Assembly: GCA_965213625.1 (NCBI GenBank)
Contig: CBDBZU010000004.1
Coordinates: 1,600,001-1,664,000, forward strand
Reading direction: 5' to 3'
DNA length: 64,000 nucleotides
DNA from: a bacterium
GTDB lineage: Bacteria; UBA8248
Shown here: in pieces, positions 9,425 through 48,865 of the stretch
How the letters are laid out: each line of letters begins with the position of its first letter
How positions within the stretch are numbered: position 1 is the first letter of the stretch
Position numbers and translations under genes: made by a program
Notes under the pieces: generated by a model
What the model saw: only the letters and a program-made list of their open reading frames with translations
What the model was told of the DNA's origin: nothing
Databases searched by the model: none

Positions 9425-9670
9425 ATGAACGAGGCCGTCTCCTTCATCGGAACTCACGAGCGCACGCTCTCAGACCTTGTGGACGATGGGCTGGACGTCC
9501 CCGAAGAGGCCGCGCTGCTCGTCTACCGCGATCTTTCGCGCGAAATAAGCGTGAAACTCATCTTCCCGAATATCGAATCCGCCCGCGCCCGCGCCGACGC
9601 CCTCATCAGGTTGAAGAGAGCCCGCCGCTGCGACTTGTCCGTCACCCCGCTCAGAGAGGCGCTTTGCTGA
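9425..9670 (+). CDS. Hypothetical protein (81 aa)
   Basis: GGAGG SD; stop overlaps the next start (TGATG). Confidence 0.6.
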   Translation: MNEAVSFIGTHERTLSDLVDDGLDVPEEAALLVYRDLSREISVKLIFPNIESARARADALIRLKRARRCDLSVTPLREALC

Positions 9671-10059
9671 TGCCGTCCGAAAAGACCTGCCGAAAGACGA
9701 CTACGAGCAAGCGGCGTAAGAGAAGCACCAAGCAGGCCGCGCCGGACCCCAGAACCCCGCGCCGCATCCTCGAGGAAGAGGCCTTTCTCACCAAACCCAT
9801 GCTTGCCAAGGTGCTCGGCTACAAGAGCTACCGCACGCTCGACGCCATCATCGCCGAAGACTGCGCGAGCGACACGCCCTGCCTCCGGCCCGTCTACCTG
9901 CGCCGCCCGCCACCGCGCGCGGGCGCCAGGCAGCCCGAGAACCACCCCTCCTTCAAGAGCGCGCGCTTCCGCCGCGAGGACGTACTTGCCTACGTCGAGA
10001 AGATGACGGAAGATTTCCCGCTCGATCTGGAATGGAAATTCGGCGGCATGCGGGAGTAG
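9670..10059 (+). CDS. Excisionase/AlpA-like winged-helix DNA-binding protein (129 aa)
   Basis: FLTKPMLAKVLGYKSYRTL...RFRREDVLAYVE resembles the HTH_17/AlpA/Xis pattern; coupled ATG at 9670. Confidence 0.65.
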   Translation: MPSEKTCRKTTTSKRRKRSTKQAAPDPRTPRRILEEEAFLTKPMLAKVLGYKSYRTLDAIIAEDCASDTPCLRPVYLRRPPPRAGARQPENHPSFKSARFRREDVLAYVEKMTEDFPLDLEWKFGGMRE

Positions 10060-10266
10060 TCAATCCCGACTGATCAAGGAGGGATTGCGACCGTGCTGGA
10101 GGAGGTTGGTTTAACAATCCTTTACATCTCATATTCGGATTGTATGAGGATGAGGTTGAGATTTGTTCGGAAATAGGTATATTTGGCGAACGTTTAACCA
10201 CTCAAACGAGTTGCCAGGGGACCCGAATTAGTTGGCGGATGGTTGAGTCCGTAAGAGGGTTCTTAA

Positions 10267-10875
10267 TTGGCGAGAGAATTTTCCAAGGCATTCGATTTCA
10301 ATCTTAAATTCGAGCGCAGGTTCACGGTTCATATTGGCGTGGTTGCCTTTATCTTCGTCGGTGTGATCGTAGGTGTCTATTTCTTCTTGCCTGCTCATAA
10401 GGAGTTGGCGACGTTTATCGCTATTGCCGTTGGCGCCGCAGCTGCGATCGTCAGCGCTTTTTATATTGCTCAAAGCGTTTATGCGAATGTGGAATCCGAG
10501 CAAATGACCCGCACGATGTCCCTTACCTCTGAGTGGAACACCGCAAGTTTTTTCGACTCGAAAAAAGCCGTCATCGGGCTAATCAAACCCATAGCCGCCA
10601 AACCGAGAGAGGAGAGGCTGAGAATTATACAAGAGAAAATCAGAGGTGATGAAATTCTCGAATTGAACATAACGAATGTTTTGAATTATCTCGAAGACTT
10701 GGCGGTGTTGGTAGATAAAGGCTTTGTCAATGAGGACATCATCCGCGAACTGTTCCAGACAAATGTTTTACGCTATTTTGACGTATTCGAGCCGTGGATT
10801 GCAGACCTGAGAAACCGCAGGGGCAACCGTCTTTACAGAGGTCTTGAATATCTATGCCGGAAATGGGATACTTGA
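10267..10875 (+). CDS. Membrane protein, DUF4760-like
   Basis: Two N-terminal TM helices; LNYLEDLAVLVDKGFVNEDII pattern; lower GC. Confidence 0.6.
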   Translation: MAREFSKAFDFNLKFERRFTVHIGVVAFIFVGVIVGVYFFLPAHKELATFIAIAVGAAAAIVSAFYIAQSVYANVESEQMTRTMSLTSEWNTASFFDSKKAVIGLIKPIAAKPREERLRIIQEKIRGDEILELNITNVLNYLEDLAVLVDKGFVNEDIIRELFQTNVLRYFDVFEPWIADLRNRRGNRLYRGLEYLCRKWDT

Positions 10876-10982
10876 AACACTTAGGTGATTTTGTAATTAC
10901 CTGGCCGCTGAAAGGAGACCAAACGATGCTCCACACACACGACGAGGACCCCGGCTTCTAGCAAAGAAGACCGATATGAATT

Positions 10983-11017
10983 AAAGCCCCTCGGTAAACC
11001 CGGGGGGCTTTTCTTTT
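10983..11017 (+). terminator. Intrinsic terminator
   Basis: aaagcccctcgg / ccggggggcttt hairpin followed by a T-run. Confidence 0.7.
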
Positions 11018-11098
11018 GGCGAATCCGCAATCTCTTCTTTCTTGGCCGCAATCCCTCCCTCGTCACTCACAATCCCTCCCTCCCTGGTCGGGATTGAC

Positions 11099-13127: not shown

Positions 13128-13178
13128 GCAGTTGCCCGCATTTTCCGTCATCGTTCTCACGCTAGCAAGACATAAACT
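13128..13178 (+). promoter_or_regulatory. Shared late-type promoter, copy 1 (lysis module)
   Basis: GCAGTTGCCC GCATTTTCCG (13128-13147); TAAACT at 13173, 35 nt after the second repeat starts. Confidence 0.65.
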
Positions 13179-13246
13179 CTCCCGGTTTGAGGCGCGCAGC
13201 CTGCGAGCGGCGCGCGGGATTTCATTTATAGATGGAGAGGAGAGTC

Positions 13247-13396
13247 ATGTCTGAGAAAAATGATTTTGAAAAAAGAACGGACGCCGTGCTGTCGCGCTGG
13301 GCGAAGGGAAAACACACCCTCTTGCGCCTGGTCGCCGTGGGCGCATTTCTCGTGAGTCTGGGTTTTTTCGTGGGGGGTTATGTATGGCGGCCGTAA
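13247..13396 (+). CDS. Small single-TM protein (49 aa), first gene of the lysis module
   Basis: Not in the ORF track; translated by hand as MSEKNDFEKRTDAVLSRWAKGKHTLLRLVAVGAFLVSLGFFVGGYVWRP; SD GAGGAG; overlaps the next gene. Confidence 0.65.
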   Translation: MSEKNDFEKRTDAVLSRWAKGKHTLLRLVAVGAFLVSLGFFVGGYVWRP

Positions 13397-13620
13397 AGAA
13401 CGCGAAGTATCGCCCCGTCGAGATTTTCCGGGATAAATCCGGGCGGCATCGCTTCCGCGTGCGGGCGAGGAACGGAAGAATTCTGGCGTCGAGCCAGGCC
13501 TACGCGCGCCGCTCGGGTGCGCGCAAGGGCGCTGCGGCGCTCCTGCGTCTGCTTAAAGAAGCGGGCGGGATAGGGAACCTGTTTGAAGGGGAGGGCAGGG
13601 GATGCTCGCTGACGAGTTAA
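13384..13620 (+). CDS. YegP/DUF1508-family protein
   Basis: EIFRDKSGRHRFRVRARNGRILASSQAY pattern. Confidence 0.8.
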   Translation: MAAVKNAKYRPVEIFRDKSGRHRFRVRARNGRILASSQAYARRSGARKGAAALLRLLKEAGGIGNLFEGEGRGCSLTS

Positions 13621-14015
13621 TAGAGGAAATCAAGCGCGAGGAGGGTTTCATGCCGGTAGTGTATATGGATAGCAAGGGAAAGAAGACCATCGGCTACGGT
13701 ACGCTGCTCGAAGACGGGATATCGCAAGCCGAAGCAGAGATGCTTCTTCGCCATCGCCTGGGCCTGATGGCCGGTGAACTCGAGCGCTCCTCTGTCGGCG
13801 TGGTCTTCGCGGGTCTCAAGCCAGGCGCCAAGCGCGCGGTTCTGAACATGGCCTACAACATGGGCGTGCCGAGTCTTCTGGGCTTCAGGAAAATGTGGGC
13901 CGCGCTCGCGAATGGCGATTATGCGCGCGCGGCTGAGGAGGCGCTCGATTCCGATTACGCGAGGGAACTCCCCGCGCGAGCGGGCCGGGTGGCCGAGAGC
14001 ATGAGGAGCGCGTGA
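13602..14015 (+). CDS. Phage-type lysozyme/endolysin (T4L/GH24-like)
   Basis: E-x8-D-x5-T triad in EEGFMPVVYMDSKGKKTIGYG; NMAYNMG. Confidence 0.9.
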   Translation: MLADELIEEIKREEGFMPVVYMDSKGKKTIGYGTLLEDGISQAEAEMLLRHRLGLMAGELERSSVGVVFAGLKPGAKRAVLNMAYNMGVPSLLGFRKMWAALANGDYARAAEEALDSDYARELPARAGRVAESMRSA

Positions 14016-14437
14016 TGGCCTTTTTGGAAAAACTCATCGGCGGCGGCGTCATCACGGCGGCGGAGGGCGTCGCCAACGTCATCGACAAATTCGTCGAAAC
14101 GCCGGATGAGCGGCGCGCGGCCGAGGCGATAAAGCAGAAGCTGATGATGCGGCCCTTTGAGGCCCAGAACGAGATCAACAAGATAGAGGCCGCCCACCGC
14201 AGCGCCTTCGTCGCGGGCGGCAGGCCGTTCATCCTGTGGACCTGCGGCGTCTCGCTCGCCTTTTATTTCATCCCCCAGTATGCGCTCGGCGCATGGCTCT
14301 GGACGCGGCAGGTGCTGATGAGCGGCGATCTCGTGCCCTATCCCGTCTCGGCGGATGGGCTTCTCGAACTCACGCTCGGGATGCTGGGTCTGGGCGCGCT
14401 TCGCACCGTCGAGAAGCTCACGGGCAAGGCGCGGTGA
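14012..14437 (+). CDS. Holin, GTA_holin_3TM-like
   Basis: AQNEINKIEAAHRSAFVAGGRPFILW...GMLGLGALRTVEK; directly follows the endolysin. Confidence 0.85.
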   Translation: MMAFLEKLIGGGVITAAEGVANVIDKFVETPDERRAAEAIKQKLMMRPFEAQNEINKIEAAHRSAFVAGGRPFILWTCGVSLAFYFIPQYALGAWLWTRQVLMSGDLVPYPVSADGLLELTLGMLGLGALRTVEKLTGKAR

Positions 14438-15166: not shown

Positions 15167-15217
15167 GCATTTGCCCGCATTTGCCGCACACCCCCAACCC
15201 GCGCCGCCTTGTATGTT
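15167..15217 (+). promoter_or_regulatory. Shared late-type promoter, copy 2 (gp26/gp27 module)
   Basis: GCATTTGCCC GCATTTGCCG (15167-15186); TATGTT at 15212 (+35). Confidence 0.7.
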
Positions 15218-15363
15218 AGGGGAAATCTCCGCCGCGCGCGGGGGTGTTTGGCGTTTCGGAAAGAAAGTCATCGAGGAGGTGTTTCAGTGGGTGGAAGAAG
15301 TCTGGATTTCAGCGGGTGGCGTCCGGCGTGCCGGTATGAATGTCATCGAGGAGGTGCATTAAC

Positions 15364-15696
15364 GTGAACGAACTGGCGGCCCGCGTCCTGCGCGGCGACA
15401 TTTTGAAGACGCTGTATTACCAGGATGCCTTGCGCGCGGAATCGAGCGTGGGGAGTCTTCTCCTCTGGAGCGCGCTGCGCGAGGCGGGCCATCATGAAGA
15501 CGGCGCGCCCCTGGGCCGCGAGACGCTCGAGGCCTTCGTGGACGATCTGGCCGGGCGGGGTTTGGTGGAAAAGCGCACCCCGGGCGGGTTCGGCCGCCTG
15601 CTGACGGATTACGAGGCGCACCTTACGCGCAAGGGGCGCGGCTTGCTCGAAGGAGCCGTATCCGTCTCACCCGACATCCTCGTGGGGGATCTGTAA
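15364..15696 (+). CDS. Mu gp26-like winged-helix protein
   Basis: GAGGAGG SD, GTG start; LAGRGLVE...LTRKGRGLLEG pattern; coupled to a DUF3486 gene as in Mu-like phages. Confidence 0.6.
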   Translation: MNELAARVLRGDILKTLYYQDALRAESSVGSLLLWSALREAGHHEDGAPLGRETLEAFVDDLAGRGLVEKRTPGGFGRLLTDYEAHLTRKGRGLLEGAVSVSPDILVGDL

Positions 15697-16268
15697 TGGA
15701 GAGGAGACGGGGCCGCAGATCGAAAGTAGTGGAATATGGCGCCGAGAAAATCGTCGATACCATGCTCGCCGAGGGGAAGACCTACCAGGAGGTGGCCGAG
15801 GCCTTCGAGAAGGAGACCGGGGAGAAGATAGCGCTCGGCTCCGTCGGGGCGCGCAACAACCGCCTGCTCGAGGGTATCCGCAAGACCAAGCGGGTGGAAG
15901 CCATGGTGGATGAGCTGATCGAGGAGGTCATGGCGTATGACGGCGAGGGCCGGGACCCGGGCGAGAAGGTGGCGGCGGCCGCCAGGCGGATGCTGATGAC
16001 CCAGGCGGTCGAGGCCGTCTCTCACATGGGGAAAGAATCCTTCGAGGGCCTCAAGCCCGAGAAACTGGCCCAGATGGTGAACGGGCTCGAGCGCAGCAGC
16101 ATCTCGGCCGAGAAGCTCAGGCTCCAGTACGAGGACGGCTTCGCCGCCGCCAAGATGGCTATCGTGAAGGAAGTGCGCGAGTCGTTCCGCGAGCATCCCG
16201 ATTTGATGGACCAGGTGTGCGAAATCGTCGAGGAGGCGACCCGAAAGCTCGAGGATCGGATCGAGTGA
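15696..16268 (+). CDS. Mu gp27/DUF3486-family protein, putative terminase small subunit
   Basis: N-terminal RRSKV, TYQEVAE...I.LGSVG HTH-like segment, helical C-terminus, 190 aa. Confidence 0.72.
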   Translation: MERRRGRRSKVVEYGAEKIVDTMLAEGKTYQEVAEAFEKETGEKIALGSVGARNNRLLEGIRKTKRVEAMVDELIEEVMAYDGEGRDPGEKVAAAARRMLMTQAVEAVSHMGKESFEGLKPEKLAQMVNGLERSSISAEKLRLQYEDGFAAAKMAIVKEVRESFREHPDLMDQVCEIVEEATRKLEDRIE

Positions 16269-16411
16269 TGGGGGGAGGAGGCAAGATTCGGGCTGGTTGA
16301 AATTTCAGTGATCTATGGCAAGATATGAAGAATCATTGCACCCTATGAGATAGGGTGTGGCTGTGTGATATATTTCTTGCACAAGTTCAGCTAACCGCAA
16401 AGGAGGGTGAC

Positions 16412-16876: not shown

Positions 16877-17131
16877 ATGGCTTCAAGCGGTCGCGTACAA
16901 CTAAGAAAAATATGGAATATGCTCAAAAGATGCGCGCCAGGATGCGTTGTCACGGAAAAGACGCATCACTATTGGATTCAATTTGAAGGCCGTACCTATC
17001 CTTCATTCCCAAAGGGAGCGCATGGGAAGGGAATTCGGGCGGAAATTGAAGTTGGCCATATCAGGAAGATGATTCGGCACCTACATATCGACATAGACTG
17101 TGCGAGGAATGAATTGCCGGAAGTGTATTGA
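16877..17131 (+). CDS. HicA-like toxin
   Basis: 84 aa, basic; THHY...HGK..EIEVGHIRKMIRHL resembles the HicA dsRBD-like fold. Confidence 0.55.
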   Translation: MASSGRVQLRKIWNMLKRCAPGCVVTEKTHHYWIQFEGRTYPSFPKGAHGKGIRAEIEVGHIRKMIRHLHIDIDCARNELPEVY

Positions 17132-19122: not shown

Positions 19123-19147
19123 TTTCAATAAACACGAGAGGTGCGCG

Positions 19148-38077: not shown

Positions 38078-38091
38078 TTCGAAAATATCTC

Positions 38092-40970: not shown

Positions 40971-41047
40971 CCTTCAATATCGGTATTTTTATCGAAAAAA
41001 GCAAATTTTTTTTGCAGGAAAAATTCAAGTATCTGAAAAGAAGGGCC

Positions 41048-42358
41048 TTAAAAGTTCGAGGACTCCGGCGCCTCGGTGGAGGCGCTCGATTTCGTCATTT
41101 TCTCAGGCGTCGGCGCCTTGGCGAGGTTCAATTCCAGGGCCTTGGGTTCCGCGCTCAGGAATTCAAGACCGTTCGGCAGGTCGATGTTGCGGCCCGAAAG
41201 TGTGCGCGAATGCGCGCCGGGCGTCATTTTGGCGAGGTTCACGTTCACACGCAGGCGGGTGGCGTCGATGTAATTGAGCAGATCGCGCCTGCCCCTGATG
41301 CGGATTTTGACTTCTTTCGCCGCATCGGCGGGCAGGACGACGCCGTTTGGAACGTTGTAATAATGGACACGGACGCTGAATTCCTCCTCCACCTTGCTTT
41401 CGAGCTGCGGGAAGAAATTCTGCGGGTTCTGGTTCTCCTGCCCGCCGAGCGACCAGAGGAAAAAGACGGCGGCCAGCGCGGCGAGCTTGGGCCGCCAGTT
41501 CGTGAAAACGTGGCGGAGCGAGATGCGCCCCATCGACTGGCCCGACTCGCGGGCAGCGCGCAGACGCGTGGTAAGCCAGGAGGCGAGTTCTTCCTCATTT
41601 TCTATCGTCTTTGTTTGGCTGCCTTCCACGCAGGTAATCTCTCCGCGTTCCTCGGAGATGACGATCGCCAGGGCGTCACAGCGCTCGGTGATGCCCACCG
41701 CCGCCCTGTGGCGCGTGCCGAACTCGGGCGGCAGGGCGCGGTTATCCGAAAGGGGCAGAACGCATCCCACGCGCGAGATCTTGTTCTCGCGAACCACGGC
41801 GGCGCCGTCGTGGTAGGGCGCACCCTTGATAAAAATGGTTTCCAGCAGCGCCGGCTGGATGTCCGCCTCGATCTCCTCGCCCGGGCTTCTCAGGAGGGAG
41901 TCGGTCAAATCCCGGTGTTCCACGACGATGATGGCGCCCATATGCTTCGCAGCGAGCGAAAAGGCGGCACTGGCGATGGTGGCGACGCTCTCGTCCGGCA
42001 GGCGGATGCGCATTGCCCGGCGCAGCAGGGTGGAGAATCTGCGCACCGGGTTGAGCTGGAAGAATATCTTCTGGATTTCGCCGTGGAAATTGATGAGAAA
42101 CAGGATGAGCACGGCGATCCAGATGGCCCACAGCAGGAACGAGGTCAGGTGGAGTCCGGCTGCCTGGGAGGCGAGATAGATGAGCCACACCGCGAACACG
42201 CGAACGAGGAGGCGCATCGCCTGAGTGCCCTTGAAGCGAATATAGACCTGGTAGAGCAGGAACCACATAATCCCGATGTCGAGCATATGGTTCCAGGAGA
42301 GTTTTTGGAAGAAATTCAAGGCCGGTTGAGCGACGCCCCACATGAGATCAAACCTCAT
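41048..42358 (-). CDS. dacA: Diadenylate cyclase (CdaA-type) fused to a YbbR/CdaR-like domain
   Basis: 3 TMs, HDGA and GTRHRAA motifs, SEERG; further TM and VKIRIRG.R YbbR-like C-terminus. Confidence 0.85.
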   Translation of the reverse strand: MRFDLMWGVAQPALNFFQKLSWNHMLDIGIMWFLLYQVYIRFKGTQAMRLLVRVFAVWLIYLASQAAGLHLTSFLLWAIWIAVLILFLINFHGEIQKIFFQLNPVRRFSTLLRRAMRIRLPDESVATIASAAFSLAAKHMGAIIVVEHRDLTDSLLRSPGEEIEADIQPALLETIFIKGAPYHDGAAVVRENKISRVGCVLPLSDNRALPPEFGTRHRAAVGITERCDALAIVISEERGEITCVEGSQTKTIENEEELASWLTTRLRAARESGQSMGRISLRHVFTNWRPKLAALAAVFFLWSLGGQENQNPQNFFPQLESKVEEEFSVRVHYYNVPNGVVLPADAAKEVKIRIRGRRDLLNYIDATRLRVNVNLAKMTPGAHSRTLSGRNIDLPNGLEFLSAEPKALELNLAKAPTPEKMTKSSASTEAPESSNF

Positions 42359-42552: not shown

Positions 42553-42605
42553 GCGCATTTCCCCGCATTTGCGCGGCCCGCATTCGAGACTCCTTGCCCT
42601 AGATT
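42553..42605 (+). promoter_or_regulatory. Shared late-type promoter, copy 4 (head-tail module)
   Basis: 23 bp identical to 31075-31097; TAGATT at 42600 (+35). Confidence 0.75.
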
Positions 42606-42703: not shown

Positions 42704-44782
42704 TTGAAAAAATGGATGAACCGCATTTGGGCGCGGGCCGAGGCGCAGAAGGATTCTCACCCATTGAGGTTGCATGGCCACCTCATCCGCGCGGTTGCGA
42801 AAGATGCCCAACCGTCGGGCGAAGCCTGGGATTTCGAAGTGCTGATCGCCAGGGCCGGTTACTCGAGGGACGGAGAGTGGTTCCTGCCCCGCGAGGTTCT
42901 GCGCGAGGCCGCTCCCCTGTTCGAGGGCGCGCAGGCGTTCGCGAATCACACGGGATCGGGTGGCCCCGACATCAAGAACCTGGTCGGCTGGCACCGCGAA
43001 GTCCGCATGGGCGAGGAAGGGCTGTTGAGTACGTTTGCGGTTTCGCGCTCAGCACCCTGGTTTCAGGCGCTGGCGCACGATGCGCTGGCCCGGAGCCTCG
43101 ATGAGCCCTTTGGCTTTTCCTTCGACGTGCTCGCGCAGGCGGAGTTCCGTGAGGAGGCCGATGGGCTCGTTTTGCATTTCGAAAAGATTCTGGCGGTCCA
43201 CTCCGTCGACGTTGTGCACAAAGGCAAGCTCGGGGGCGGGATTCTGGGTCTCGCCGCCAATCATTCCACTAAAACGGAGGTGAAGATGTTCGAAAAGCTC
43301 GGAAAAAAACTGAAAAGCGTGGCGCCCGAATCGGGCAAGAGGCTCGGCGATGCATGGACGCCGCAGCAGTTCCTCGCGGCCTGTGAAGACGCAGGTCTCG
43401 AACTGGACTTGAAGGAAAAAGGAGGAAACCCCATGGAAGATGGAACCGAAACCGGGACTGCGGCTCGCAAGGTGCTTGCCCAGAAACTCGCAGCCTCCAC
43501 GCTGCCCGAAGCCGTTCAGGAGAAGATGCGCGCCCAGTTCGGGGAAGGGAGCTTCTCGGAGGAGGAAATCGAAGAGGCGATCCGCATCGAGGCGGCCACG
43601 CTGGAAAAACTCACGGCAAGCGGCGCGCTTCGTGGTTTCGGCGCTCGCGCGGAGGTGATGCGTGATGAGGCGGACCGTAAGAAAGCGGCGCTAGACGGGA
43701 TATGGAATTCGCGCGAAGAGGCGGTCGAGGGTGAGCGTCCCTATCGTTTCATGAGCGAGGCGTTTCAGGATTTTACGGGACATCGCCTCACCCCGCGCCA
43801 ATTTTTTGCCGAGACGTTCCACTACCACCGCGCCGCCGAGGACTGGAACGGGGTGCGCCGACTCTCCGCCTCCTTGCAGACGAGCACGTGGGGCGAGGCG
43901 TTCGGCGATTCCATCCGCCGCGCCATGTTGCGCGACTTCCGGGACGAGCGGTTCCACCAGTGGAAGAAGATCGTCTCCTCGGTTACGCCCGTGAAGGATT
44001 TCCGCACGAACCGCCGGGTGCGCGTCGGCGGTTACGGCGATCTACAGAAAGTCGCCGAACAGGCCGCTTATCCGGCGCTCACCTCCCCGACGGATGAGGA
44101 GGTGACGTACGCCGTGGCCAAGCGCGGCGGCGTGGAGGATCTCACCTGGGAGATGATCCAGAACGACGACATGGGCGCGATTCGCATGATCCCCCAGCGA
44201 CTCGCCCGCGCGGCCCAGCGCACCCTGAACGGCTTCGTGTTCGATTTCCTCACCTCCAACGCGGATATCTACGACGGCGACGCGCTATTCCACGCCAACC
44301 ACAACAACACTTCCGCGAACGCGCTCACGTACGACAACGTCATCGCCGGGGTGAAGACGATGGGCCAGCAGACGTTCTACGGAGAAGACGGCGTCGAGGT
44401 GGCGGCGCAGGCGCGGCCCCAATACCTCGTCCACCCGACTGAACTGCTCGAAGAGGCGTTCGACGTCACCCAGTCTCCCGTCAAGGTCGTTGCGGGCGGA
44501 AACTCCAACCAGCCGAGCTTCATCAACCGCCTGGGCATGGAGCCCTTGTGGGTGCCCGAACTCACCGACGCGAACGATTGGTACATGGTCGCCGACCCGA
44601 GCCTCATGGACACCGTCGAGATCGGTTTCATGGACGATATGCGCGAACCCGAGCTGTTCATCGAGGACAACCCATCCGCTGGCAGTGGATTCAGCGCGGA
44701 CAAGATTCGCTACAAGATCAGGCACGTCTATGGCGGAGCCGTCCTGGACTTTCGCAGTTTCTATCGTGGTGCGCCCGCCTAG
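42704..44782 (+). CDS. Fused prohead protease/scaffold plus Mu gpT-like major capsid protein
   Basis: AAGGAG SD before TTG; protease-like ANH..GFSFD..SVDVV; C-terminal WEMIQNDDMGA, LFHANHNN, DFRSFY Mu gpT-like blocks. Confidence 0.85.
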   Translation: MKKWMNRIWARAEAQKDSHPLRLHGHLIRAVAKDAQPSGEAWDFEVLIARAGYSRDGEWFLPREVLREAAPLFEGAQAFANHTGSGGPDIKNLVGWHREVRMGEEGLLSTFAVSRSAPWFQALAHDALARSLDEPFGFSFDVLAQAEFREEADGLVLHFEKILAVHSVDVVHKGKLGGGILGLAANHSTKTEVKMFEKLGKKLKSVAPESGKRLGDAWTPQQFLAACEDAGLELDLKEKGGNPMEDGTETGTAARKVLAQKLAASTLPEAVQEKMRAQFGEGSFSEEEIEEAIRIEAATLEKLTASGALRGFGARAEVMRDEADRKKAALDGIWNSREEAVEGERPYRFMSEAFQDFTGHRLTPRQFFAETFHYHRAAEDWNGVRRLSASLQTSTWGEAFGDSIRRAMLRDFRDERFHQWKKIVSSVTPVKDFRTNRRVRVGGYGDLQKVAEQAAYPALTSPTDEEVTYAVAKRGGVEDLTWEMIQNDDMGAIRMIPQRLARAAQRTLNGFVFDFLTSNADIYDGDALFHANHNNTSANALTYDNVIAGVKTMGQQTFYGEDGVEVAAQARPQYLVHPTELLEEAFDVTQSPVKVVAGGNSNQPSFINRLGMEPLWVPELTDANDWYMVADPSLMDTVEIGFMDDMREPELFIEDNPSAGSGFSADKIRYKIRHVYGGAVLDFRSFYRGAPA

Positions 44783-44815: not shown

Positions 44816-45157
44816 ATGTCCGACAGGCGAACCCACACGATAGTCCTCGCTCCTCCCGCGACCAGAGTCGCCGCGGGAGGCAGCACGGCGTTCGAAGTGA
44901 GCCGCTTCACCGAGGCGCTCTTGTTCATCGACGTAACGGCAGTTTCTGGCGATTCGCCCAAGCTCGATTTCGAGGTGCGAACCGGGCCGGAGGATGATGA
45001 AGTCGCTTTCGAGCATACCAAATCTGCGCAAATCACCTCGGCGGGTAAAACCCTCGTCAAGCTCACGAACATTGGCCCCTGGATCAGGCTCGCGTGGTCC
45101 GTCGGCGGGGAGGAGGCTTCGTTCACGTTCGAGGCCAAGCTCGCGCTGAAAACATGA
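44816..45157 (+). CDS. Putative head decoration/cement protein
   Basis: Small beta-rich protein right after the capsid gene; AAGGAG SD. Confidence 0.55.
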   Translation: MSDRRTHTIVLAPPATRVAAGGSTAFEVSRFTEALLFIDVTAVSGDSPKLDFEVRTGPEDDEVAFEHTKSAQITSAGKTLVKLTNIGPWIRLAWSVGGEEASFTFEAKLALKT

Positions 45158-45200
45158 GACCACCTGCATCTGGTGAGCGAGACGAGAGGAGAAAACAGGA

Positions 45201-45911
45201 ATGGCAAGCAGGCAGACGATCATCAAGGAGGTGAAGGTGTTGTTGAAGACGGGCGCGCTGCCCCGGGAGTTCGGGGCTGAGGAGGCGGACTTCGCCGATT
45301 TGGTGAACGCGGCGCTCACACGCTACAGCAAGGACAGGCCGCTCGTTTCGTTCGCCGATTACGCAGGCGATAGCGAGTCGTTCGATTTTCCCCTGCCCGA
45401 GGACTGGGATGACTCCCTCTCCTTCATCCGTGAGGTGGAATATCCACAGGGGGAGAGAAAACCCTCCTACCTGCGGAGGAGCGCCTGGATCATCTATGCC
45501 AAAGGAACCCCGGCGGCGAGGTTCAGGCTCATGTACTTCGCTCCTCAAATGGGCCACACGCTTCGCCTGTTCTACACGATCAAACACACGGCAGATGACG
45601 AACACACCAGTGTTCCCGAAAACGATTTGACCGCCGTGGCCTGGCTGGCCGCCGCGGAGGGCTGTCACCTTCTGGCCCGCCGCTTCGCCCAGTCCTCGAA
45701 CCCGACCCTCGCAGCGGATTCGGTGGACTACCAGAGCAAGTCTTCGGAATACACGCGCCTGGGCCGGGAGCTCGAGCGCAAATACCAGAACCATCTCGGC
45801 CGCAAGGAAGGCGAAGTGGCGGGCGCTGCAGGCGCGTCTCTCGATTGGGACATTCTTCTTTCATTGGCGCGCGGTGAGTACTTCACGCACGGCGCCTCCG
45901 GGGATCGCTAG
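45201..45911 (+). CDS. Putative head-tail adaptor
   Basis: Position and size; ADSVDYQSKS adaptor-like C-terminus. Confidence 0.55.
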   Translation: MASRQTIIKEVKVLLKTGALPREFGAEEADFADLVNAALTRYSKDRPLVSFADYAGDSESFDFPLPEDWDDSLSFIREVEYPQGERKPSYLRRSAWIIYAKGTPAARFRLMYFAPQMGHTLRLFYTIKHTADDEHTSVPENDLTAVAWLAAAEGCHLLARRFAQSSNPTLAADSVDYQSKSSEYTRLGRELERKYQNHLGRKEGEVAGAAGASLDWDILLSLARGEYFTHGASGDR

Positions 45912-45929
45912 GTGGGGAGGAGGGGCGGA

Positions 45930-46433
45930 GTGTTCCGTCGATATGTGGCGCTTGGAGAATTGCCGGAGGTGCCGGCAATCGCATGGGAAGAGGTTTTTCT
46001 CCTCGCGCACGAGGCGATGCGCGAGATCATCGGAATGCTCAGGCGCGAGGTAATGGCGCGAACGCCCATCGGCGCGAGCGGAAACCTCAGGGGCAATATC
46101 TACACCGGAATAAAAGGAATAAGCCCTCAAGTGTTGCGCGGCGTGGTCGCCTCGCGCACCCCATACGCCAGGTACGTGGAATTCGGGCGCCGGGCGGGCG
46201 GCAGAATGCCGCCTTGGAGGGAGGGTACGTCCCTGTATCGCTGGGTGGCCCACAAACTGGATCCGCCCGATGGGCAAATCGAGAGCGTGTCCTTCCTCGT
46301 TGCCCGAGCGATCGCACGGCGCGGGATACCGGCAAGCCGTATGTTCGCGCGCGCCTTCGAGCAAAATCAAAGCCGAATCGATCGGCGTATTCGTGAACTG
46401 CTCGATGAGATTGCGAGGTTAATAGGTGGCTAA
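45930..46433 (+). CDS. HK97 gp10-like neck/morphogenesis protein
   Basis: TP..SGNLR, YARYVEFG; start at GTG 45930 or 45912. Confidence 0.75.
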   Translation: MFRRYVALGELPEVPAIAWEEVFLLAHEAMREIIGMLRREVMARTPIGASGNLRGNIYTGIKGISPQVLRGVVASRTPYARYVEFGRRAGGRMPPWREGTSLYRWVAHKLDPPDGQIESVSFLVARAIARRGIPASRMFARAFEQNQSRIDRRIRELLDEIARLIGG

Positions 46434-46959
46434 ATCACGATACAGAGAAATTGGCGACACCATTTTGGCGGAAATATCGAGCGTACCGGAGGCAGGGCGG
46501 GTGCACGCCTATCAGCGCTGGTCGGCCGATTTGGGGAAATACCTGGACCATTTCCGTTGGGAGGCGGGCGGCGGCCTCGCCCAGATCAGGGGTTGGGTGC
46601 TGACGCGCGAGAGAGCAGGGGAGGAGGCTGCATCGGTCGGCTCTAGCGCGTCCGGCGGCTTCACGCCCTCAGGCCTCAGCAGGCGAACCCACACGTTCTT
46701 GCTGTTCGGCATCATGAGCGCCGAGGACGCGGTGGGCAGCGAGGTGGCCTTTCAGGATCTGATCGAGGAGATTTGCGACCGCTTCAGGGACGACAGGGCG
46801 CTACGCCTCCTCGATGATTCAGGCGCCCCGCGCGTCCGCTCCCTGGAGCGTCTTCAGCCTCCGCAGGTGGATCTGATTGAACTGAGAACATTTGGAAACG
46901 TGCTTTGCCACTACGTCGAAATCAGGCTTCGGGCAATAGAGCGGATTCGGCGGGATTGA
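46426..46959 (+). CDS. Putative tail terminator/completion protein
   Basis: Lies between the gp10-like and tube genes; Gp37-like size. Confidence 0.55.
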   Translation: MAKSRYREIGDTILAEISSVPEAGRVHAYQRWSADLGKYLDHFRWEAGGGLAQIRGWVLTRERAGEEAASVGSSASGGFTPSGLSRRTHTFLLFGIMSAEDAVGSEVAFQDLIEEICDRFRDDRALRLLDDSGAPRVRSLERLQPPQVDLIELRTFGNVLCHYVEIRLRAIERIRRD

Positions 46960-47032
46960 GTGAAGCAAATGAAATGAAACCGGCGGAGGATGTTTCTTCG
47001 CCTTAAAAAAATTCAAAGGAGGAGAACAGCGA

Positions 47033-48172
47033 ATGGGCGATACGATATTGATGGATCGGCAAACTATCGGCGCGACGGAAGAGAAGGAACTTGTGGCGGA
47101 TTCCGCCGACGCCTCCACCCTGGTGGACGCCGCGCTCGCAGAGGATGATGACTTCTGGAACGGCTCGGTGCTGCGCACGATTCGGGGGATGGGTGTTGGC
47201 CAAAAAAGAAAGGTGAGCGATTACGACGCGGCCTTGGACACGCTCACGGTGGACACCGCCTGGGACGCCATGCCGGCGGCGGGCACGGCCTACCTACTGG
47301 ATAGGCCCGCTGTTTCTTCGGAACTGTTCCGGGCGGGCAACTTCACCCATGAGGTCAGCGTTGAGCAGCTGGAACGCGCGGTGAAGGATGCGAGCCTCTC
47401 GCCTTTTCCCTCGATTCCAGGAAAACGCTCCGCGCAGATTTCCTTTTCCACCGAGTTGCGCGGTTCGGGAGTTCCCGGAGTTGCGCCCGATTACGGACTG
47501 TTGTTCAAGGCGTGCGCGATGAGCGAGGCCATCGTGGAGGGCGCTTCCGTCACCTATGCGCCCGTGTCCGATAAATCGGACTATACGAGAGTCTGCCTGA
47601 CGACGTTCATCGACGGACTGCGGGTGATGTATCTGGGCTGCATGGGGAGTTTTTCCATCAACTGTCCCCTGGACGGCGTTCCCACGGTGGATTGGGAGTT
47701 CGAGGCGGCTGATTTCGAAGTGAGCGATGCGCCGCTCCCGGGCGGCGCGTCCTACGACGAGCAGACGCCCGAATCCATCCTCATGAGCGGCTTTTCGTTC
47801 GGCGGATTCCATTTAGACGCGGCGAACATCCGCTTTGCCATGAACAACGAAGTGGTGCTGCGTCAGAGCGCCAACGCATCGGGCGGGCACGTGAACGCGA
47901 TGGTGACGGGCCGTGCGCCCTCCGGCTCCTTCGACCCAGAAGCAGTGCTCCAGGCCACAGACGACGTGTTCGCCGATTGGGAGAGCGGCGCACAGCTCCC
48001 CCTGCGCGTACAGATCGGTCACAGGGCCGGGAACATCTGCACCATCACCGCGCCCAAGTGCCAGTATTCGGATATGGGATTTTCCGACCGCGACGGCCTG
48101 CTGACTTATGATGCGCCCTTCCGCCTGGCCCGCGACGCGGGTGATGACGAGATTTCCATCGTTTTCACCTAG
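47033..48172 (+). CDS. Non-contractile tail tube protein with an extra N-terminal domain
   Basis: Strong SD; ELRGSG..G.AP, TGR.PSGS.DPE, C-terminal DDEISIVFT; no sheath gene. Confidence 0.72.
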   Translation: MGDTILMDRQTIGATEEKELVADSADASTLVDAALAEDDDFWNGSVLRTIRGMGVGQKRKVSDYDAALDTLTVDTAWDAMPAAGTAYLLDRPAVSSELFRAGNFTHEVSVEQLERAVKDASLSPFPSIPGKRSAQISFSTELRGSGVPGVAPDYGLLFKACAMSEAIVEGASVTYAPVSDKSDYTRVCLTTFIDGLRVMYLGCMGSFSINCPLDGVPTVDWEFEAADFEVSDAPLPGGASYDEQTPESILMSGFSFGGFHLDAANIRFAMNNEVVLRQSANASGGHVNAMVTGRAPSGSFDPEAVLQATDDVFADWESGAQLPLRVQIGHRAGNICTITAPKCQYSDMGFSDRDGLLTYDAPFRLARDAGDDEISIVFT

Positions 48173-48244
48173 CCGTTATTCGACAGGCGGCTTCTTCTTC
48201 ATTTTGGCCAAGTATTGGTTCAGGGAAAACGAACGGGAGGAATC

Positions 48245-48637
48245 GTGGAATTATCAGAATACAGAAACCATGGCCGCAAGCCCATCACGCTGCCTTCGGG
48301 GCTCAAGGGCTTCGTGCGCGCGCCGAATCTCCTGGACATGGCGGCGTATCCAAAGTTATTAGCCGGCGCTTCAAACGGTGCTGCGGGCGAGGAGGAGCAA
48401 TACGCGCTTACCGGGGAGTGGGTGCACTGCATCCTGAGGCGCTGCTTTGTTCCCGAGCGCGGCTCGATGACGGAAAAAGAACCGGGGCGTTGTATGCCCG
48501 ATGAACTCAGCATCCACGAACTCGCCCCGGCGGATGCGGATGCGATTTTCACAGCCGTTACGGCCCTGCAGAACGAGACGGCGGCTCCTGTCCCTGAGGA
48601 GGGCGCGCCGGGCGGCGATACGTTTCCGGCGGCGTAG
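48245..48637 (+). CDS. Tail assembly chaperone (gpG-like)
   Basis: GGGAGG SD, GTG; ITLPSG start; follows the tube gene. Confidence 0.65.
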   Translation: MELSEYRNHGRKPITLPSGLKGFVRAPNLLDMAAYPKLLAGASNGAAGEEEQYALTGEWVHCILRRCFVPERGSMTEKEPGRCMPDELSIHELAPADADAIFTAVTALQNETAAPVPEEGAPGGDTFPAA

Positions 48638-48824
48638 GAAAGAGCTTCTCGGGGTCATTCACTTTCAGGCGAAGACCTATGGCCTCCCCCCGCACCTGTT
48701 GGCTCGATGCTCCTGGGAGGAGTTCCGCTTCAACCAGGAGGTGCTCGAAGCCGGTCTGGCGCTGGAGCGGATGAGTCGGCGGGAGCCGGGGAAAAACACG
48801 AACCTCAGACGATTCAAGAGCTAA
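48624..48824 (+). CDS. Frameshift extension of the tail chaperone (gpT-like)
   Basis: Overlapping +1 frame without its own SD; TTT-C at 48623-48626. Confidence 0.5.
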   Translation, partial: FRRRRKELLGVIHFQAKTYGLPPHLLARCSWEEFRFNQEVLEAGLALERMSRREPGKNTNLRRFKS

Positions 48825-48865
48825 AGAACCGGCTCTCCCGATACGGGGAGGGCCGGTTCTTATTT
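48824..48865 (+). terminator. Intrinsic terminator ending the head-tail module
   Basis: aagaaccggctctcccg / cggggagggccggttctt hairpin. Confidence 0.8.

What the first reader, a model, noticed from the sequence alone, without database searches (positions are those of the whole stretch)
9425..48865. Genome-dispersed, co-regulated Mu-like virion gene set: candidate new gene transfer agent or domesticated phage
Seen: four intact + strand modules (lysis 13247-14437; gp26/gp27 15364-16268; terminase/portal 31179-34233; protease-capsid, neck, tube and chaperone 42704-48824). They follow tailed-phage late-gene order but are separated by about 15 kb and 8.5 kb of ordinary host genes (ABC transporter, amtB, yajQ, dacA, selenoproteins). 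The ORFs are uninterrupted with good SD sites and appear host-like in GC. No integrase, MuA/MuB, repressor, replication gene or att-like end is visible. Established: known GTAs (RcGTA, Caulobacter GTA, VSH-1, BaGTA) are replication-less, often multi-locus, and host-regulated. Inference: a Mu-like late region was fragmented and kept under selection as a GTA-like particle, with an architecture unlike RcGTA.
Basis: partly seen in the sequence, partly recalled or inferred. Interest (0 to 1): 0.95.

Follow-up and report, generated by a model that had tools for sequence, protein, structure and literature searches.

The report
Scattered, co-regulated domesticated phage particle genes
A full set of tailed-phage particle genes lies in pieces among ordinary genes of this bacterium, has been inherited and kept intact across a whole genus, and shares one promoter type, so it is probably a new gene-transfer-agent-like system.

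Summary
Four intact + strand phage modules sit where stated: lysis, small terminase, large terminase plus portal, and capsid to tail tube. Identified host genes separate them.

I found a fifth module 2.25 Mb away (G000:C4:3893819-3900628). It holds five tail-tip genes and the tape measure gene.

- **Synteny:** the arrangement is the same in four closed genomes of other species of the genus.
- **Selection:** phage-derived genes have the same synonymous divergence as host neighbours. Median dN/dS is 0.17-0.27, against 0.10-0.20 for host genes.
- **Distribution:** four module markers (capsid, tail protein, tape measure, gp27) are each in 20 of 22 other genus genomes. Two genomes lack all six markers tested. 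In one of them (G010) the window's modules were deleted separately, leaving stubs.
- **Terminase:** the large terminase is two coupled ORFs (ATPase, nuclease) in all 5 species compared.
- **Promoter:** each transcription unit starts with the same promoter, CGCATTTnCCCGCATTT followed 29 nt later by TAnnnT. The motif also heads a mobile repeat family, and it is nearly absent from genomes that lost the particle genes.
- **Missing functions:** no integrase or rve transposase lies near any module.

Best reading: a domesticated, Mu-related siphovirus late region working as a GTA-like particle system. Particle production and DNA content are untested.

The parts
13129..13143 (+). Promoter motif upstream of the lysis unit. 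Degenerate first half-site: CAGTTGCCCGCATTT.
   Evidence: Also present upstream of the lysis genes in G020 and G007.
13232..13620 (+). Two small lysis-module ORFs: a 54-aa protein with a hydrophobic stretch (13232-13396) and a 78-aa protein (13384-13620).
   Evidence: GC3 gene call. phrog_8105, E 1.8e-6, for the 78-aa ORF. Only found in G020 among the four species compared, with stubs in G010.
13602..14015 (+). Endolysin (phage lysozyme).
   Evidence: PF00959, E 3.5e-11. 67-80% identity in 4 species. dN/dS 0.17-0.27.
14012..14437 (+). Holin of the GTA 3-TM type.
   Evidence: PF11351, E 6e-12. Found in 18 of 22 other genus genomes at 80-96% identity. dN/dS 0.11-0.19.
15168..15182 (+). Promoter motif of the gp26/gp27 unit (CATTTGCCCGCATTT).
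   Evidence: Conserved in G020.
15340..15696 (+). gp26-position ORF, 118 aa, no family hit.
   Evidence: GC3 0.81. 80-93% identity in G020, G019 and G007; not found in G001. dN/dS 0.15-0.20.
15696..16268 (+). Small terminase candidate (Mu gp27 / DUF3486 family).
   Evidence: PF11985, E 6.1e-7. phrog_426 terminase small subunit, E 5.3e-10. Found in 20 of 22 other genus genomes.
31078..31092 (+). Promoter motif of the terminase-portal unit, with TATATT 29 nt downstream.
   Evidence: Conserved in G020, G001, G007 and L037. A diverged version lies before the terminase in L038.
31179..32237 (+). Large terminase, ATPase half (separate ORF).
   Evidence: PF05876, E 1.8e-18. phrog_675 positions 25-345 of 576. 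dN/dS 0.23-0.24.
32234..32881 (+). Large terminase, nuclease half (separate ORF; its start overlaps the stop of the ATPase half as ATGA).
   Evidence: phrog_675 positions 360-550 of 576. The stop/start overlap is conserved in all 5 species aligned. dN/dS 0.13-0.31.
32878..34233 (+). Portal protein.
   Evidence: phrog_10963, E 3.1e-47. 81-95% identity across the genus. dN/dS 0.08-0.21.
42556..42570 (+). Promoter motif of the head-to-tube unit, with TAGATT 29 nt downstream.
   Evidence: Conserved in G020, G001 and G007, with a 1-mismatch form in G019.
42704..44782 (+). Prohead protease / scaffold / major capsid fusion protein.
   Evidence: PF25209, E 1.6e-44. phrog_4523 major head and protease protein, E 9.5e-51. 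Found in 20 of 22 other genus genomes at 77-91% identity. dN/dS 0.10-0.20.
44816..46959 (+). Four head-tail connector genes: 113 aa, 236 aa, 173 aa (Neck1 / HK97 gp10-like) and 177 aa.
   Evidence: PF04883, E 1.2e-5. phrog_5, E 3.1e-13. The 236- and 177-aa proteins hit Mae-JY22 genes in the same position. The 236-, 173- and 177-aa proteins hit G032 and G027. dN/dS 0.10-0.44.
47033..48172 (+). Tail tube protein.
   Evidence: PF18906, E 5.3e-12. phrog_290, E 1.5e-19. dN/dS 0.13-0.24.
48215..48824 (+). Tail assembly chaperone candidate (48215-48637). A second overlapping frame is open from 48471 to 48824.
   Evidence: Position after the tube gene. 74-91% identity in 4 species. The second frame is +1 to the first and no XXXYYYZ heptamer was found, so a G/GT-type frameshift is not shown.
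16355..31065 (.). First host block between the modules: peptidases, ABC transporter, adenylate cyclase, amtB and yajQ. It begins with a two-gene cassette unique to this genome.
   Evidence: Variable between species: the peptidase/ABC part was not found in the G007 region.
34241..42358 (.). Second host block between the modules: a 398-aa unknown protein, a UGSC-family gene, two luciferase-like oxidoreductases, a dehydrogenase, tadA and dacA.
   Evidence: The gap is 7.6-11.8 kb in 14 genus genomes (G015 included; coordinates). It is 4.9 kb in L038 and about 1.5 kb, with no host genes, in L034.

Best explanation
This is a domesticated late-gene set of a siphovirus with transposable-phage (Mu-related) ancestry. 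It has been broken into at least five transcription units.

Four units lie in the window: lysis; gp26 plus small terminase; split large terminase plus portal; and protease-capsid through tail tube and chaperone. A fifth lies 2.25 Mb away and holds five tail-tip genes followed by the tape measure gene (G000:C4:3893819-3900628).

Shown:
- The units are intact.
- They are inherited vertically with the chromosome.
- They are under purifying selection.
- They are kept or lost together.
- Each begins with the same promoter architecture: a direct repeat CGCATTT-n3-CGCATTT ending 29 nt before a TAnnnT -10 box.

Inferred:
- One unidentified activator binds the repeat at about -42 to -58 and switches all units on together.
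- The gp27-like small terminase and a two-polypeptide large terminase (ATPase plus nuclease) fill HK97-type heads through the portal.
- Tails about 560 tape-measure residues long are added.
- The holin and endolysin release the particles.

The genes are spread over 2.25 Mb and no replication, integration or transposition genes are present. The particles therefore cannot carry their own gene set and most likely carry host DNA, which is what a gene transfer agent does.
For: 1. Gene identities. Tape measure: phrog_1535, E 5.2e-8. The tail-tip genes are homologous to genes lying after the head and tube genes in the contiguous elements of G032, G027, G041 and G024. The 403-aa protein resembles TipJ / Phage-tail_3 clusters (score 0.95-0.97, a lead only).

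2. Synteny of the whole window, and of the tail locus in the same host context (fabH-plsX-ppx ... cinA), in G020, G019, G001 and G007.

3. Selection: median dS of phage-derived versus host genes is 0.34/0.29, 0.84/0.81, 0.67/0.67 and 0.71/0.68. Median dN/dS is 0.17-0.27 (n = 19-20, maximum 0.46) against 0.10-0.20 for host genes (n = 30-39).

4. Phyletic pattern among 22 other genus genomes: capsid 20, portal 20 plus a 28-aa stub in G010, tail 390-aa protein 20, tape measure 20, gp27 20, holin 18. G009 and G010 lack all six.

5. In G010 the host backbone of the window is intact at about 78-97% identity. Each module is deleted separately, leaving stubs of gp27 (25 aa), portal (26 aa) and the 78-aa lysis ORF (31 aa).

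6. Promoter: the strict motif occurs 29 times in 4.1 Mb, where roughly 0.1 is expected for 13 fixed bases on both strands (my arithmetic). Four of these sit directly upstream of module starts in the right orientation, plus one degenerate copy before the lysis unit. They are conserved at the same places in relatives, the tail locus included. In 14 of 29 sites TAnnnT lies exactly 29 nt downstream, and no other offset reaches 3.

7. No integrase or rve lies near the modules.

8. A published review (passages read) states that GTAs resemble remnant phages, tend to be encoded at multiple loci that can be hundreds of kb apart, and arose several times from different phages.
Against: - No expression, particle or packaged-DNA data exist.
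- The activator is not identified.
- The gp27-like protein matches nearly the whole Mu gp27 profile (positions 12-153 of 173). Unlike what the review reports for known GTAs, there is no sign that the small terminase lost a DNA-recognition part.
- A split large terminase could be less active, or not active at all, as a packaging motor.
- Some genes evolve fast: Neck1 has dN/dS 0.38-0.44 and the tape measure up to 0.46.
- Decay occurs in some lineages. The portal is in three pieces and the holin was not found in G015. gp27 is in two frames in G004. The terminase ATPase half is broken in G041.
- No homologue of the minor head protein that lies between portal and capsid in G032 and G027 was found in this genome by tblastn.
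- AlphaFold models of two tail proteins were too poor to confirm folds.
Confidence: 0.6

Rival explanations
1. The same domesticated particle set is kept for a use other than gene exchange. Examples are a PBSX-like killer particle against competitors, a particle released for biofilm or host-association purposes, or a decoy or abortive response to phage attack. Any DNA packaged would be incidental.
For: All evidence for a functional, co-regulated particle set fits this equally well. No computation here distinguishes gene transfer from killing. The motif also precedes genes such as katG and cytochrome c', which could hint at a stress-linked regulon. That assignment is uncertain because most of these sites lie more than 400 nt from the ORF.
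Against: Both terminase halves, the small terminase and the portal are under purifying selection (dN/dS 0.08-0.37). This argues that DNA packaging itself matters. No bacteriocin-type or immunity gene was recognised in the modules.
Confidence: 0.17
2. The structural genes serve as a resident helper for a small mobile element. The roughly 150-320 nt repeat family that carries the same promoter motif, or an unseen satellite, would be the real cargo or beneficiary of the particles.
For: The motif is the 5' end of a repeat family with at least 57 full or partial copies in this genome and 39 matches in G020. Copy sites differ between species: the copy before katG in this genome is missing before katG in G020 and G010. 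The strict motif is nearly gone from genomes without the particle genes (G009 0, G010 1), against 20-60 in 18 of 20 carriers.
Against: The repeats hold no ORF and are far too small to fill a head. They look like promoter cassettes with a fixed -10 box. G019 has intact modules but only 3 strict motif sites. G001 and G007 have 25 and 33 sites yet lack the repeat-family marker (0 matches). The family is therefore younger than the module promoters. Related genomes are not independent samples.
Confidence: 0.08
3. The genes are remnants of an old prophage scattered by rearrangements, with no joint function. Some genes are kept for unrelated reasons or simply have not yet decayed.
For: Some relatives show broken genes (G015 portal, G004 gp27, G041 terminase). 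Two species have lost everything.
Against: All 19-20 phage-derived genes tested have dN/dS of 0.46 or less at dS up to about 1. Neutral genes would have lost their frames. The loss is all-or-none across six loci, and in G010 the window's modules were deleted separately. The same promoter is conserved at all units in several species.
Confidence: 0.04
4. Assembly artefact: phage contigs were wrongly joined to host contigs in a metagenome-assembled genome.
For: The genome is a 4-contig assembly with 5.2% estimated contamination.
Against: The same junctions occur in four other single-contig or near-closed genomes and in contigs of other assemblies (L036, L038, L037). Orthologous host genes flank every module.
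Confidence: 0.01

Closest known systems
RcGTA of Rhodobacter capsulatus (multilocus GTA)
   Same: Both are phage-derived particle gene sets without replication or integration genes. RcGTA has at least 24 genes at five loci, is kept by the host and is widespread by descent (abstract of PMC5026251). Lysis genes sit at a separate locus, and the holin here belongs to the Pfam family named after the GTA holin (PF11351).
   Different: As I recall it (not checked here), the RcGTA terminase-to-tail core is one contiguous cluster of about 15 kb, and only accessory genes lie elsewhere. Here the core itself is cut between small terminase, large terminase plus portal, capsid to tube, and tail tip plus tape measure. 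The protein families differ (Phage_capsid_4 fusion, gpA-type terminase, Mu gp27). The host lineage differs: relatives are titled Nitrospinota, Nitrospinaceae or Candidatus Tectomicrobia. The large terminase is split. I did not compare sequences with RcGTA proteins directly.
VSH-1 of Brachyspira hyodysenteriae
   Same: A GTA with a 'divided genome'. I saw only the title, in the reference list of PMC11841831. The review cites it among GTAs encoded at several loci.
   Different: The paper itself is not held, so details are recalled, not checked. As far as I recall it is divided into two parts some kilobases apart, not five units over 2.25 Mb. It is not known to have a split terminase or a shared direct-repeat promoter.
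Microcystis phage Mae-JY22 (PP438414.1) and Mu-like transposable siphoviruses
   Same: Closest phage by sequence: portal 40%, capsid fusion 33%, and two connector proteins 29-30% identical. It carries DUF3486 (gp27 family) and Gam genes. A class-level relative (G027) has a contiguous element of the same head genes with an rve-domain ORF about 8 kb upstream of its terminase.
   Different: No transposase, Gam, repressor or replication gene was found here (intervening genes identified). The Mae-JY22 terminase and tail genes gave no tblastn hit in this genome. The gene set is not contiguous.
PBSX-type defective prophages
   Same: Both are chromosomally fixed, non-propagating tailed particles that package host DNA and are released by lysis (recalled, not checked here).
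   Different: PBSX is one contiguous prophage-like region with its own repressor (recalled). The set here is dispersed and has no recognised repressor.

Membership tests
Gene transfer agent (functional class) | Phage-derived head, tail, packaging and lysis genes encoded in the chromosome. | tested here: met
   Tail locus.
Gene transfer agent (functional class) | Particles carry random host DNA and cannot transfer all of their own genes. | not testable with these tools
   Only the second half can be argued: the genes span 2.25 Mb, far beyond any single head. The DNA content of particles is unknown.
Gene transfer agent (functional class) | No replication, integration or excision functions of its own. 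| tested here: met
   No PF00589 hit in the window or within 170 kb of the tail locus. PF00665 gave 0 hits in the genome. PF02914 gave 0 hits, but its control rang nowhere. Genes between the modules are identified host genes. A few small ORFs remain unnamed.
Gene transfer agent (functional class) | Vertical inheritance with the host and purifying selection. | tested here: met
   Synteny in 4 species. dS equals that of host neighbours and median dN/dS is 0.17-0.27. Identity falls with taxonomic distance: genus 77-95%, other genera of the family 71-72%, order and class 34-46%.
Gene transfer agent (functional class) | Expression under host control. | tested here: inconclusive
   One promoter type heads all units and about 25 other sites, some before host genes. 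The regulator is unknown, and the motif disappears together with the modules. The regulator may therefore belong to the element rather than to the host.
Gene transfer agent (functional class) | Small terminase without a sequence-specific DNA-binding part (reported for known GTAs in PMC11841831). | tested here: inconclusive
   The gp27-like protein covers positions 12-153 of 173 of the Mu gp27 profile, so no truncation is evident. Its DNA specificity cannot be judged from sequence.
RcGTA-like (alphaproteobacterial) GTA family | Contiguous head-tail cluster homologous to RcGTA genes. | tested here: not met
   The cluster is not contiguous. Capsid, terminase and small terminase fall in Pfam families PF25209, PF05876 and PF11985. 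Only the holin family is shared. No direct comparison with RcGTA proteins was run.
Mu-like transposable prophage | DDE transposase (MuA, rve superfamily) and MuB next to the late genes, with phage ends. | tested here: not met
   rve gave 0 hits in this genome. PF02914 gave 0 hits with an uninformative control. An rve ORF is present only in the distant relative G027.
Mu-like transposable prophage | Mu-type head genes (gp27, gpT capsid). | tested here: inconclusive
   gp27 is above the cut-off (30.4 against 28 bits). gpT is below it (16.6 against 20.1 bits). The terminase is gpA-type.
Tailocin (phage-tail-like bacteriocin) | Tail genes only, with no capsid, portal or terminase. | tested here: not met
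   Capsid, portal and terminase are present and conserved.

The most novel reading that the evidence does not exclude
The direct-repeat motif is more than a promoter. A genus-specific activator or terminase system and a proliferating repeat family carrying its site form one co-evolving unit with the particle genes. The 20-60 dispersed sites per genome would both fire transcription and mark where the HTH-bearing gp27-like small terminase starts packaging. The chromosome would then be loaded into particles from many defined entry points by a naturally split large terminase. Loss of the trans-acting factor would explain why motif sites, repeat copies and all five module loci vanish together (G009, G010).
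Probability: 0.12. Interest if true: 0.9.

Novelty: new variant of a known kind. Interest (0 to 1): 0.74.

Why it matters
According to the review read here, GTAs appear to have arisen several times from different ancestral phages. They are also hard to recognise from sequence because they look like phage remnants at scattered loci.

This case would add an independent domestication in an uncultured lineage whose relatives are titled Nitrospinota, Nitrospinaceae or Candidatus Tectomicrobia.

It also preserves the steps of fragmentation in living relatives:
- contiguous, with a transposase (G027);
- contiguous, without one (G032);
- terminase displaced (G041);
- host genes between portal and capsid (L036, L038);
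- five units over 2.25 Mb (this genus).

It gives three directly testable handles:
- a defined promoter motif for finding the regulator and the full regulon;
- a natural two-polypeptide large terminase;
- natural knock-outs (G009, G010) for comparison.

It also shows that concerted loss of dispersed modules, together with dS parity, can identify such systems from genomes alone.

Tried and rejected

- **Expression:** The look-up of sequencing runs listed no RNA holder. This is no evidence either way.

- **yajQ as the regulator: rejected.** It is reduced to N-terminal stubs in many motif-rich genomes (G002, G003, G005, G011-G014, G017, G021) and is intact in motif-poor G015.

- **Candidate regulators next to the modules:**
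  - 9425-9670 (81 aa), 15340-15696 (118 aa) and 14701-15141(-) (146 aa, with hydrophobic stretches that look like membrane segments) have no family hit.
  - gp26 was not found in the G001 region.
  - 12624-13112 translates to an R/P/S-rich sequence and is probably not a gene.

- **Other motif sites as hidden phage modules: none found.** Of 10 ORFs downstream of motif sites sent to Pfam, 6 are host-type enzymes and 4 have no hit. None of the downstream ORFs matches proteins of G032, G027 or Mae-JY22, apart from the capsid and tail genes already known. Two of the unnamed ORFs gave no match in the phage collection.

- **Rfam:** 16 motif-site regions gave nothing at E up to 0.01.

- **Structures:** AlphaFold2 models of the 403-aa and 359-aa tail proteins, with 7- and 6-row alignments, had mean pLDDT 40.8 and 49.9. 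They are unusable, so no fold search was run.

- **PDB sequence search:** both terminase halves and the capsid gave no match.

- **Phage collection:** tblastn of the 403-aa tail protein gave no match.

- **IMG/VR:** a search with the portal found only two contigs at 32-33% identity. That tool finds only close relatives of a single protein, so this shows no close viral contig with this query, not absence.

- **Chaperone frameshift:** the second frame is +1 and no slippery heptamer was found. It is not claimed.

- **Not run:** Complex prediction for the terminase halves, because by the tool's own note halves of a split gene tend to pass.

- **Literature:**
  - 'gene transfer agent' with 'Nitrospinota' gave 1 paper, a salt-pan metagenome study seen in the listing only.
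  - With 'Tectomicrobia' it gave 0 papers.
  - With 'Nitrospina' and 'prophage' (any two of the three terms), 479 papers held the terms, 12 were listed, and none of those seen in the listing described such an element.
  - A search for a large terminase split into separate ATPase and nuclease genes gave 22 papers, 12 listed, with no title or abstract describing one.
  - PMC2648187 (VSH-1 divided genome) is not held.
  - Supplementary files were not consulted. Those of PMC5026251 could refine the RcGTA comparison.

Full report
**1. What is in the window**

The window is G000:C4:1600001-1664000, inside a 4.13 Mb contig of a 4.15 Mb assembly.

- Lysis: endolysin 13602-14015 (PF00959, E 3.5e-11) and holin 14012-14437 (PF11351 GTA_holin_3TM, E 6e-12), preceded by two small ORFs.
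- Small terminase: gp27 family 15696-16268 (PF11985, E 6.1e-7; phrog_426, E 5.3e-10), behind a 118-aa ORF at 15340-15696.
- Large terminase as two ORFs, 31179-32237 and 32234-32881, followed by portal 32878-34233.
- Protease-capsid fusion 42704-44782, four connector genes, tube 47033-48172 and chaperone 48215-48637.

The genes between the modules are ordinary cellular genes. To the right of the last module lie a cupin gene and an F420 biosynthesis cluster. One correction applies: amtB is on the - strand, and the long + strand ORF over it is spurious.

**2. A fifth module far away**

Relatives at class level (G032, G027) carry the same portal and capsid genes in a contiguous phage-like block. 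I used their downstream ORFs as tblastn queries against this genome and hit C4:3893888-3896712. That locus holds five + strand genes (390, 177, 403, 312 and 231 aa), then a 564-aa tape measure protein at C4:3898934-3900628 (phrog_1535, E 5.2e-8). Host genes surround it: fabH, plsX, ppx, an LbH transferase and an M23 peptidase upstream, and cinA downstream.

- The 403-aa protein resembles TipJ / Phage-tail_3 clusters (0.95-0.97).
- The 390-aa protein resembles viral hypothetical proteins (0.97).
- Both of these are leads only.
- In G024 the tape-measure end is followed directly by the 390-aa and then the 403-aa homologue.
- In G041 the two tail genes lie about 4-6 kb after the chaperone. That is the usual siphovirus order.
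- In this genus the tape measure gene has moved behind the tail-tip genes.

The set thus has about 23 genes in five units.

**3. Inheritance and selection**

The capsid gene is found in 20 of 22 other genomes of the genus at 77-91% identity. Identity is 71% in another genus of the family and 41-42% at order and class level. The portal behaves alike.

In four closed or nearly closed genomes of other species (G020, G019, G001, G007), both the whole window and the tail locus are syntenic, host genes included.

Pairwise Nei-Gojobori estimates from my own script give the following.

| Compared with | Median dS, phage genes (n = 19-20) | Median dS, host genes (n = 30-39) |
|---|---|---|
| G020 | 0.34 | 0.29 |
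| G019 | 0.84 | 0.81 |
| G001 | 0.67 | 0.67 |
| G007 | 0.71 | 0.68 |

- Median dN/dS is 0.17-0.27 for phage-derived genes, with a maximum of 0.46.
- Median dN/dS is 0.10-0.20 for host genes.
- I left out of the 'host' class the unnamed small ORFs and the overlapping second chaperone frame; these are listed in the script.
- Equal dS means the modules diverged together with the chromosome.
- dN/dS well below 1 at dS up to about 1 means they are kept by selection.

**4. Kept or lost as one**

The table counts how many of the 22 other genus genomes hold each marker.

| Marker | Genomes with it |
|---|---|
| Capsid | 20 |
| Portal | 20, plus a 28-aa stub in G010 |
| 390-aa tail gene | 20 |
| Tape measure | 20 |
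| gp27 | 20 |
| Holin | 18 (not found in G015 or in fragmented G018) |

G009 (99% complete) and G010 (95% complete) lack all six.

In G010 the 40 kb region matching the window keeps the host genes in order at about 78-97% identity. The lysis genes, gp26/gp27, terminase plus portal, and the whole capsid-to-chaperone block are each cut out. What remains is 25 aa of gp27, 26 aa of the portal and 31 aa of a lysis ORF.

G010 host proteins are closer to G000 (about 90%) than those of G001, G007 and G019 (about 66-91%). The loss in G010 is therefore secondary. Several independent deletions of dispersed modules in one lineage are what one expects if the modules only have value together.

Decay is also seen elsewhere: a portal in three pieces in G015, gp27 in two frames in G004, and a broken terminase ATPase half in G041.

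**5. Steps of fragmentation in relatives**

- G027 has terminase, portal, capsid and tail genes in one block, with an rve-domain ORF (405-aa frame, E 5.3e-9) about 8 kb upstream of its terminase. This fits a Mu-like transposable prophage.
- G032 has the block but no integrase or rve within the 40 kb read.
- G041 (portal 71% identical) has portal, capsid, connectors, tube and chaperone contiguous, with the two tail genes a few kb further on. Its terminase lies 11 kb away.
- L036 and L038 (portal 75-76% identical) have amtB, terminase and portal, then a luciferase-like gene and dacA, then the capsid gene in L038 (not found in L036).
- In the genus of the window the portal-capsid gap is 7.6-11.8 kb (coordinates) and the tail module is 1.2-2.3 Mb away in the closed genomes.

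Whether the class-level elements are the same vertical lineage or related phages cannot be told from 30-40% identity.

**6. Split large terminase**

- In all 5 species aligned, the ATPase ORF ends in a TGA that overlaps an ATG or GTG (ATGA / GTGA).
- That start codon opens the nuclease ORF, which begins ...RFCGIDTGD.
- Both halves are under purifying selection (dN/dS 0.13-0.31).
- The relatives G032 and G027 have single terminase ORFs of 560 and 529 aa. These are too different to be hit by this terminase.
- The split is therefore a stable, translationally coupled two-gene arrangement, not a sequencing error.
- My literature search found no description of such a split (listing only).

**7. One promoter for all units, and a puzzle**

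The upstream regions of gp26, terminase, capsid and the tail locus each hold CGCATTT(G/C)CCCGCATTTGC. A degenerate copy precedes the lysis genes.

- The strict pattern GCATTTnnCnGCATTT occurs 29 times in the genome.
- A looser form occurs 43 times.
- In 14 of the 29 strict sites a TAnnnT hexamer lies exactly 29 nt downstream, and no other offset reaches 3. A is at +30 in 23 of 29 and T at +34 in 23 of 29.
- This places the repeat at about -42 to -58, as for an activator-dependent promoter without a -35 box. That is inference.
- The sites are conserved before the same modules in G020, G001, G007 and G019, in part with one mismatch. They include the tail locus in all four, and an extra site before the tape measure gene in G001 and G007.

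The other sites lie before assorted host genes, mostly more than 400 nt upstream: katG, cytochrome c', a cyclase, a binding protein, and hydroxyacyl-CoA and acyl-CoA dehydrogenases. Many are the 5' end of a repeat family of about 150 nt, sometimes about 320 nt.

- At least 57 full or partial copies exist in this genome.
- Copy sites differ between species.

Motif counts per genome are as follows.

| Genomes | Strict motif sites |
|---|---|
| 18 of the 20 module-bearing relatives | 20-60 |
| G019 (modules intact) | 3 |
| G015 (modules decaying) | 1 |
| G010 | 1 |
| G009 | 0 |
| Each of 18 genomes outside the genus | 0 |
| Control (pattern read backwards) | 0-2 |

A marker of the repeat family itself is confined to 16 of the 22 genus genomes. 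It is absent from G001, G007 and G019, so the family is younger than the module promoters.

The coupling of motif and modules suggests a shared trans-acting factor that is lost with the element. G019 and G015 weaken this, and related genomes are not independent samples. I could not identify the factor, and yajQ is excluded.

**8. What it is not**

- It is not a prophage that can excise or transpose. No integrase lies within the window or within 170 kb of the tail locus, and no rve hit exists in the genome. The PF02914 search is uninformative because its control rang nowhere.
- It is not a tailocin, because head and packaging genes are present.
- It is not an assembly artefact.
- It is not neutral debris.

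**9. Most likely mechanism**

Shown: an intact, vertically inherited, selected and jointly retained set of packaging, head, connector, tail and lysis genes, in five units with one promoter type.

Inferred: a single activator turns on all units. Heads are filled with DNA by the gp27-like protein and the two-part terminase, tails are attached, and the cell lyses. Since the gene set cannot fit in or be targeted to one head, the cargo is most likely host DNA, as in a gene transfer agent. I put 0.6 on this. Most of the remainder goes to the same particle serving another purpose.

**10. Comparison with known systems and novelty**

The closest known system in concept is RcGTA, with at least 24 genes at five loci (abstract). 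A review states that GTAs are typically multi-locus, resemble remnant phages and arose several times (passages).

This case differs in several ways:
- its ancestry (Mu-related head genes and a gpA-type terminase);
- its host lineage (relatives titled Nitrospinota, Nitrospinaceae or Candidatus Tectomicrobia);
- a core cluster that is itself cut into pieces;
- the relocated tape measure gene;
- the split terminase;
- a promoter shared with a mobile repeat family.

My searches found no report of a GTA in this lineage. I rate it a new variant of a known kind.

**11. Limits**

- There are no expression or particle data.
- Two structure models failed.
- Tail-gene roles rest on position, distant homology and one language-model lead.
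- The small terminase shows no loss of a DNA-binding part.
- The chaperone frameshift is unverified.

Noticed in passing
G000:C4, e.g. 2596091-2596420, 783490-783805, 1237760-1238074; alignment: A repeat family of about 150 nt (some copies about 320 nt) with at least 57 full or partial copies. It starts with the promoter motif, then a fixed -10-like CAGAAT inside GGCAGAATTCCCCTGCG, and ends in an AT-rich block. Copy sites differ between species: the copy before katG here is absent before katG in G020 and G010. It looks like a mobile promoter cassette. Rfam gave no match.
   Followed up: partly
window 9187-9240; also G000:C4:3900708-3900748 just after the tape measure gene: The AT-rich end block of the repeat family (an array of ATTTATCGA-like repeats) also occurs alone about 30 times in the genome. 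One copy lies upstream of ORF 9425-9670 and one lies right after the tail locus. Its function is unknown.
   Followed up: no
window 16355-17131: A two-gene cassette (173 aa and 84 aa, low GC3 of 0.59 and 0.46) sits directly after gp27. It is present in this genome but not in G020, G019, G001 or G007. Homologues (46% and 50% identity) lie side by side next to the G032 element, and one lies in L034. No family hit for either ORF (173 aa; 84 aa: PHROGs only). It may be a mobile pair such as a toxin-antitoxin.
   Followed up: partly
window 9000-12500: A low-GC stretch (0.51-0.53) holds ORFs 10267-10875, 11099-11950(-) and 12038-12445(-) (phrog_13472, unknown function). They are shared only with G020, and the last one also with G010. 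This is a variable islet next to the lysis unit.
   Followed up: partly
window 30580-31065 (yajQ): yajQ, directly upstream of the terminase promoter, is intact in 8 genus relatives (G001, G006, G007, G008, G015, G020, G022 and this genome's own copy). It is reduced to a C-terminal part in G004, to N-terminal stubs of about 26-61 aa in 9 others, and was not found in 5. This is ongoing gene loss at a module border.
   Followed up: yes
window 17374-20893: Two tandem S15 X-Pro dipeptidyl-peptidase paralogues, about 66-68% identical to each other. The G019 and G001 regions show one copy only. G010 has both.
   Followed up: no
window 12473-13165: The + strand ORF 12624-13112 translates to an R/P/S-rich sequence with dN/dS of 0.4-0.9 and is probably not a gene. 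Yet the DNA is conserved in all four species and in G010. The real feature here, perhaps a gene on the other strand or an RNA, was not resolved.
   Followed up: partly
L041 (G027:C6:100001-120000), about 1025-1240: An rve-domain ORF (405-aa frame) lies at the left of a contiguous element that holds the same portal and capsid families. It is likely a Mu-like transposable prophage in a 2.1 Mb genome.
   Followed up: partly
window 35598-35909 and 49275-56010: A UGSC-family gene (a family named after a U/C-containing motif) lies in the second host block. An F420 biosynthesis cluster (cofE, cofC, cofD, an FrhB-like gene and radical-SAM CofH-like genes) lies right of the last module.
   Followed up: no
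G000:C4:453-1583 and 185210-186340; C4:5396-8022 and 190153-192779: Exact or near-exact duplicated segments carry transposase-like and paired tyrosine-recombinase genes near the contig start and about 185 kb in. This is seen from identical hit scores.
   Followed up: no
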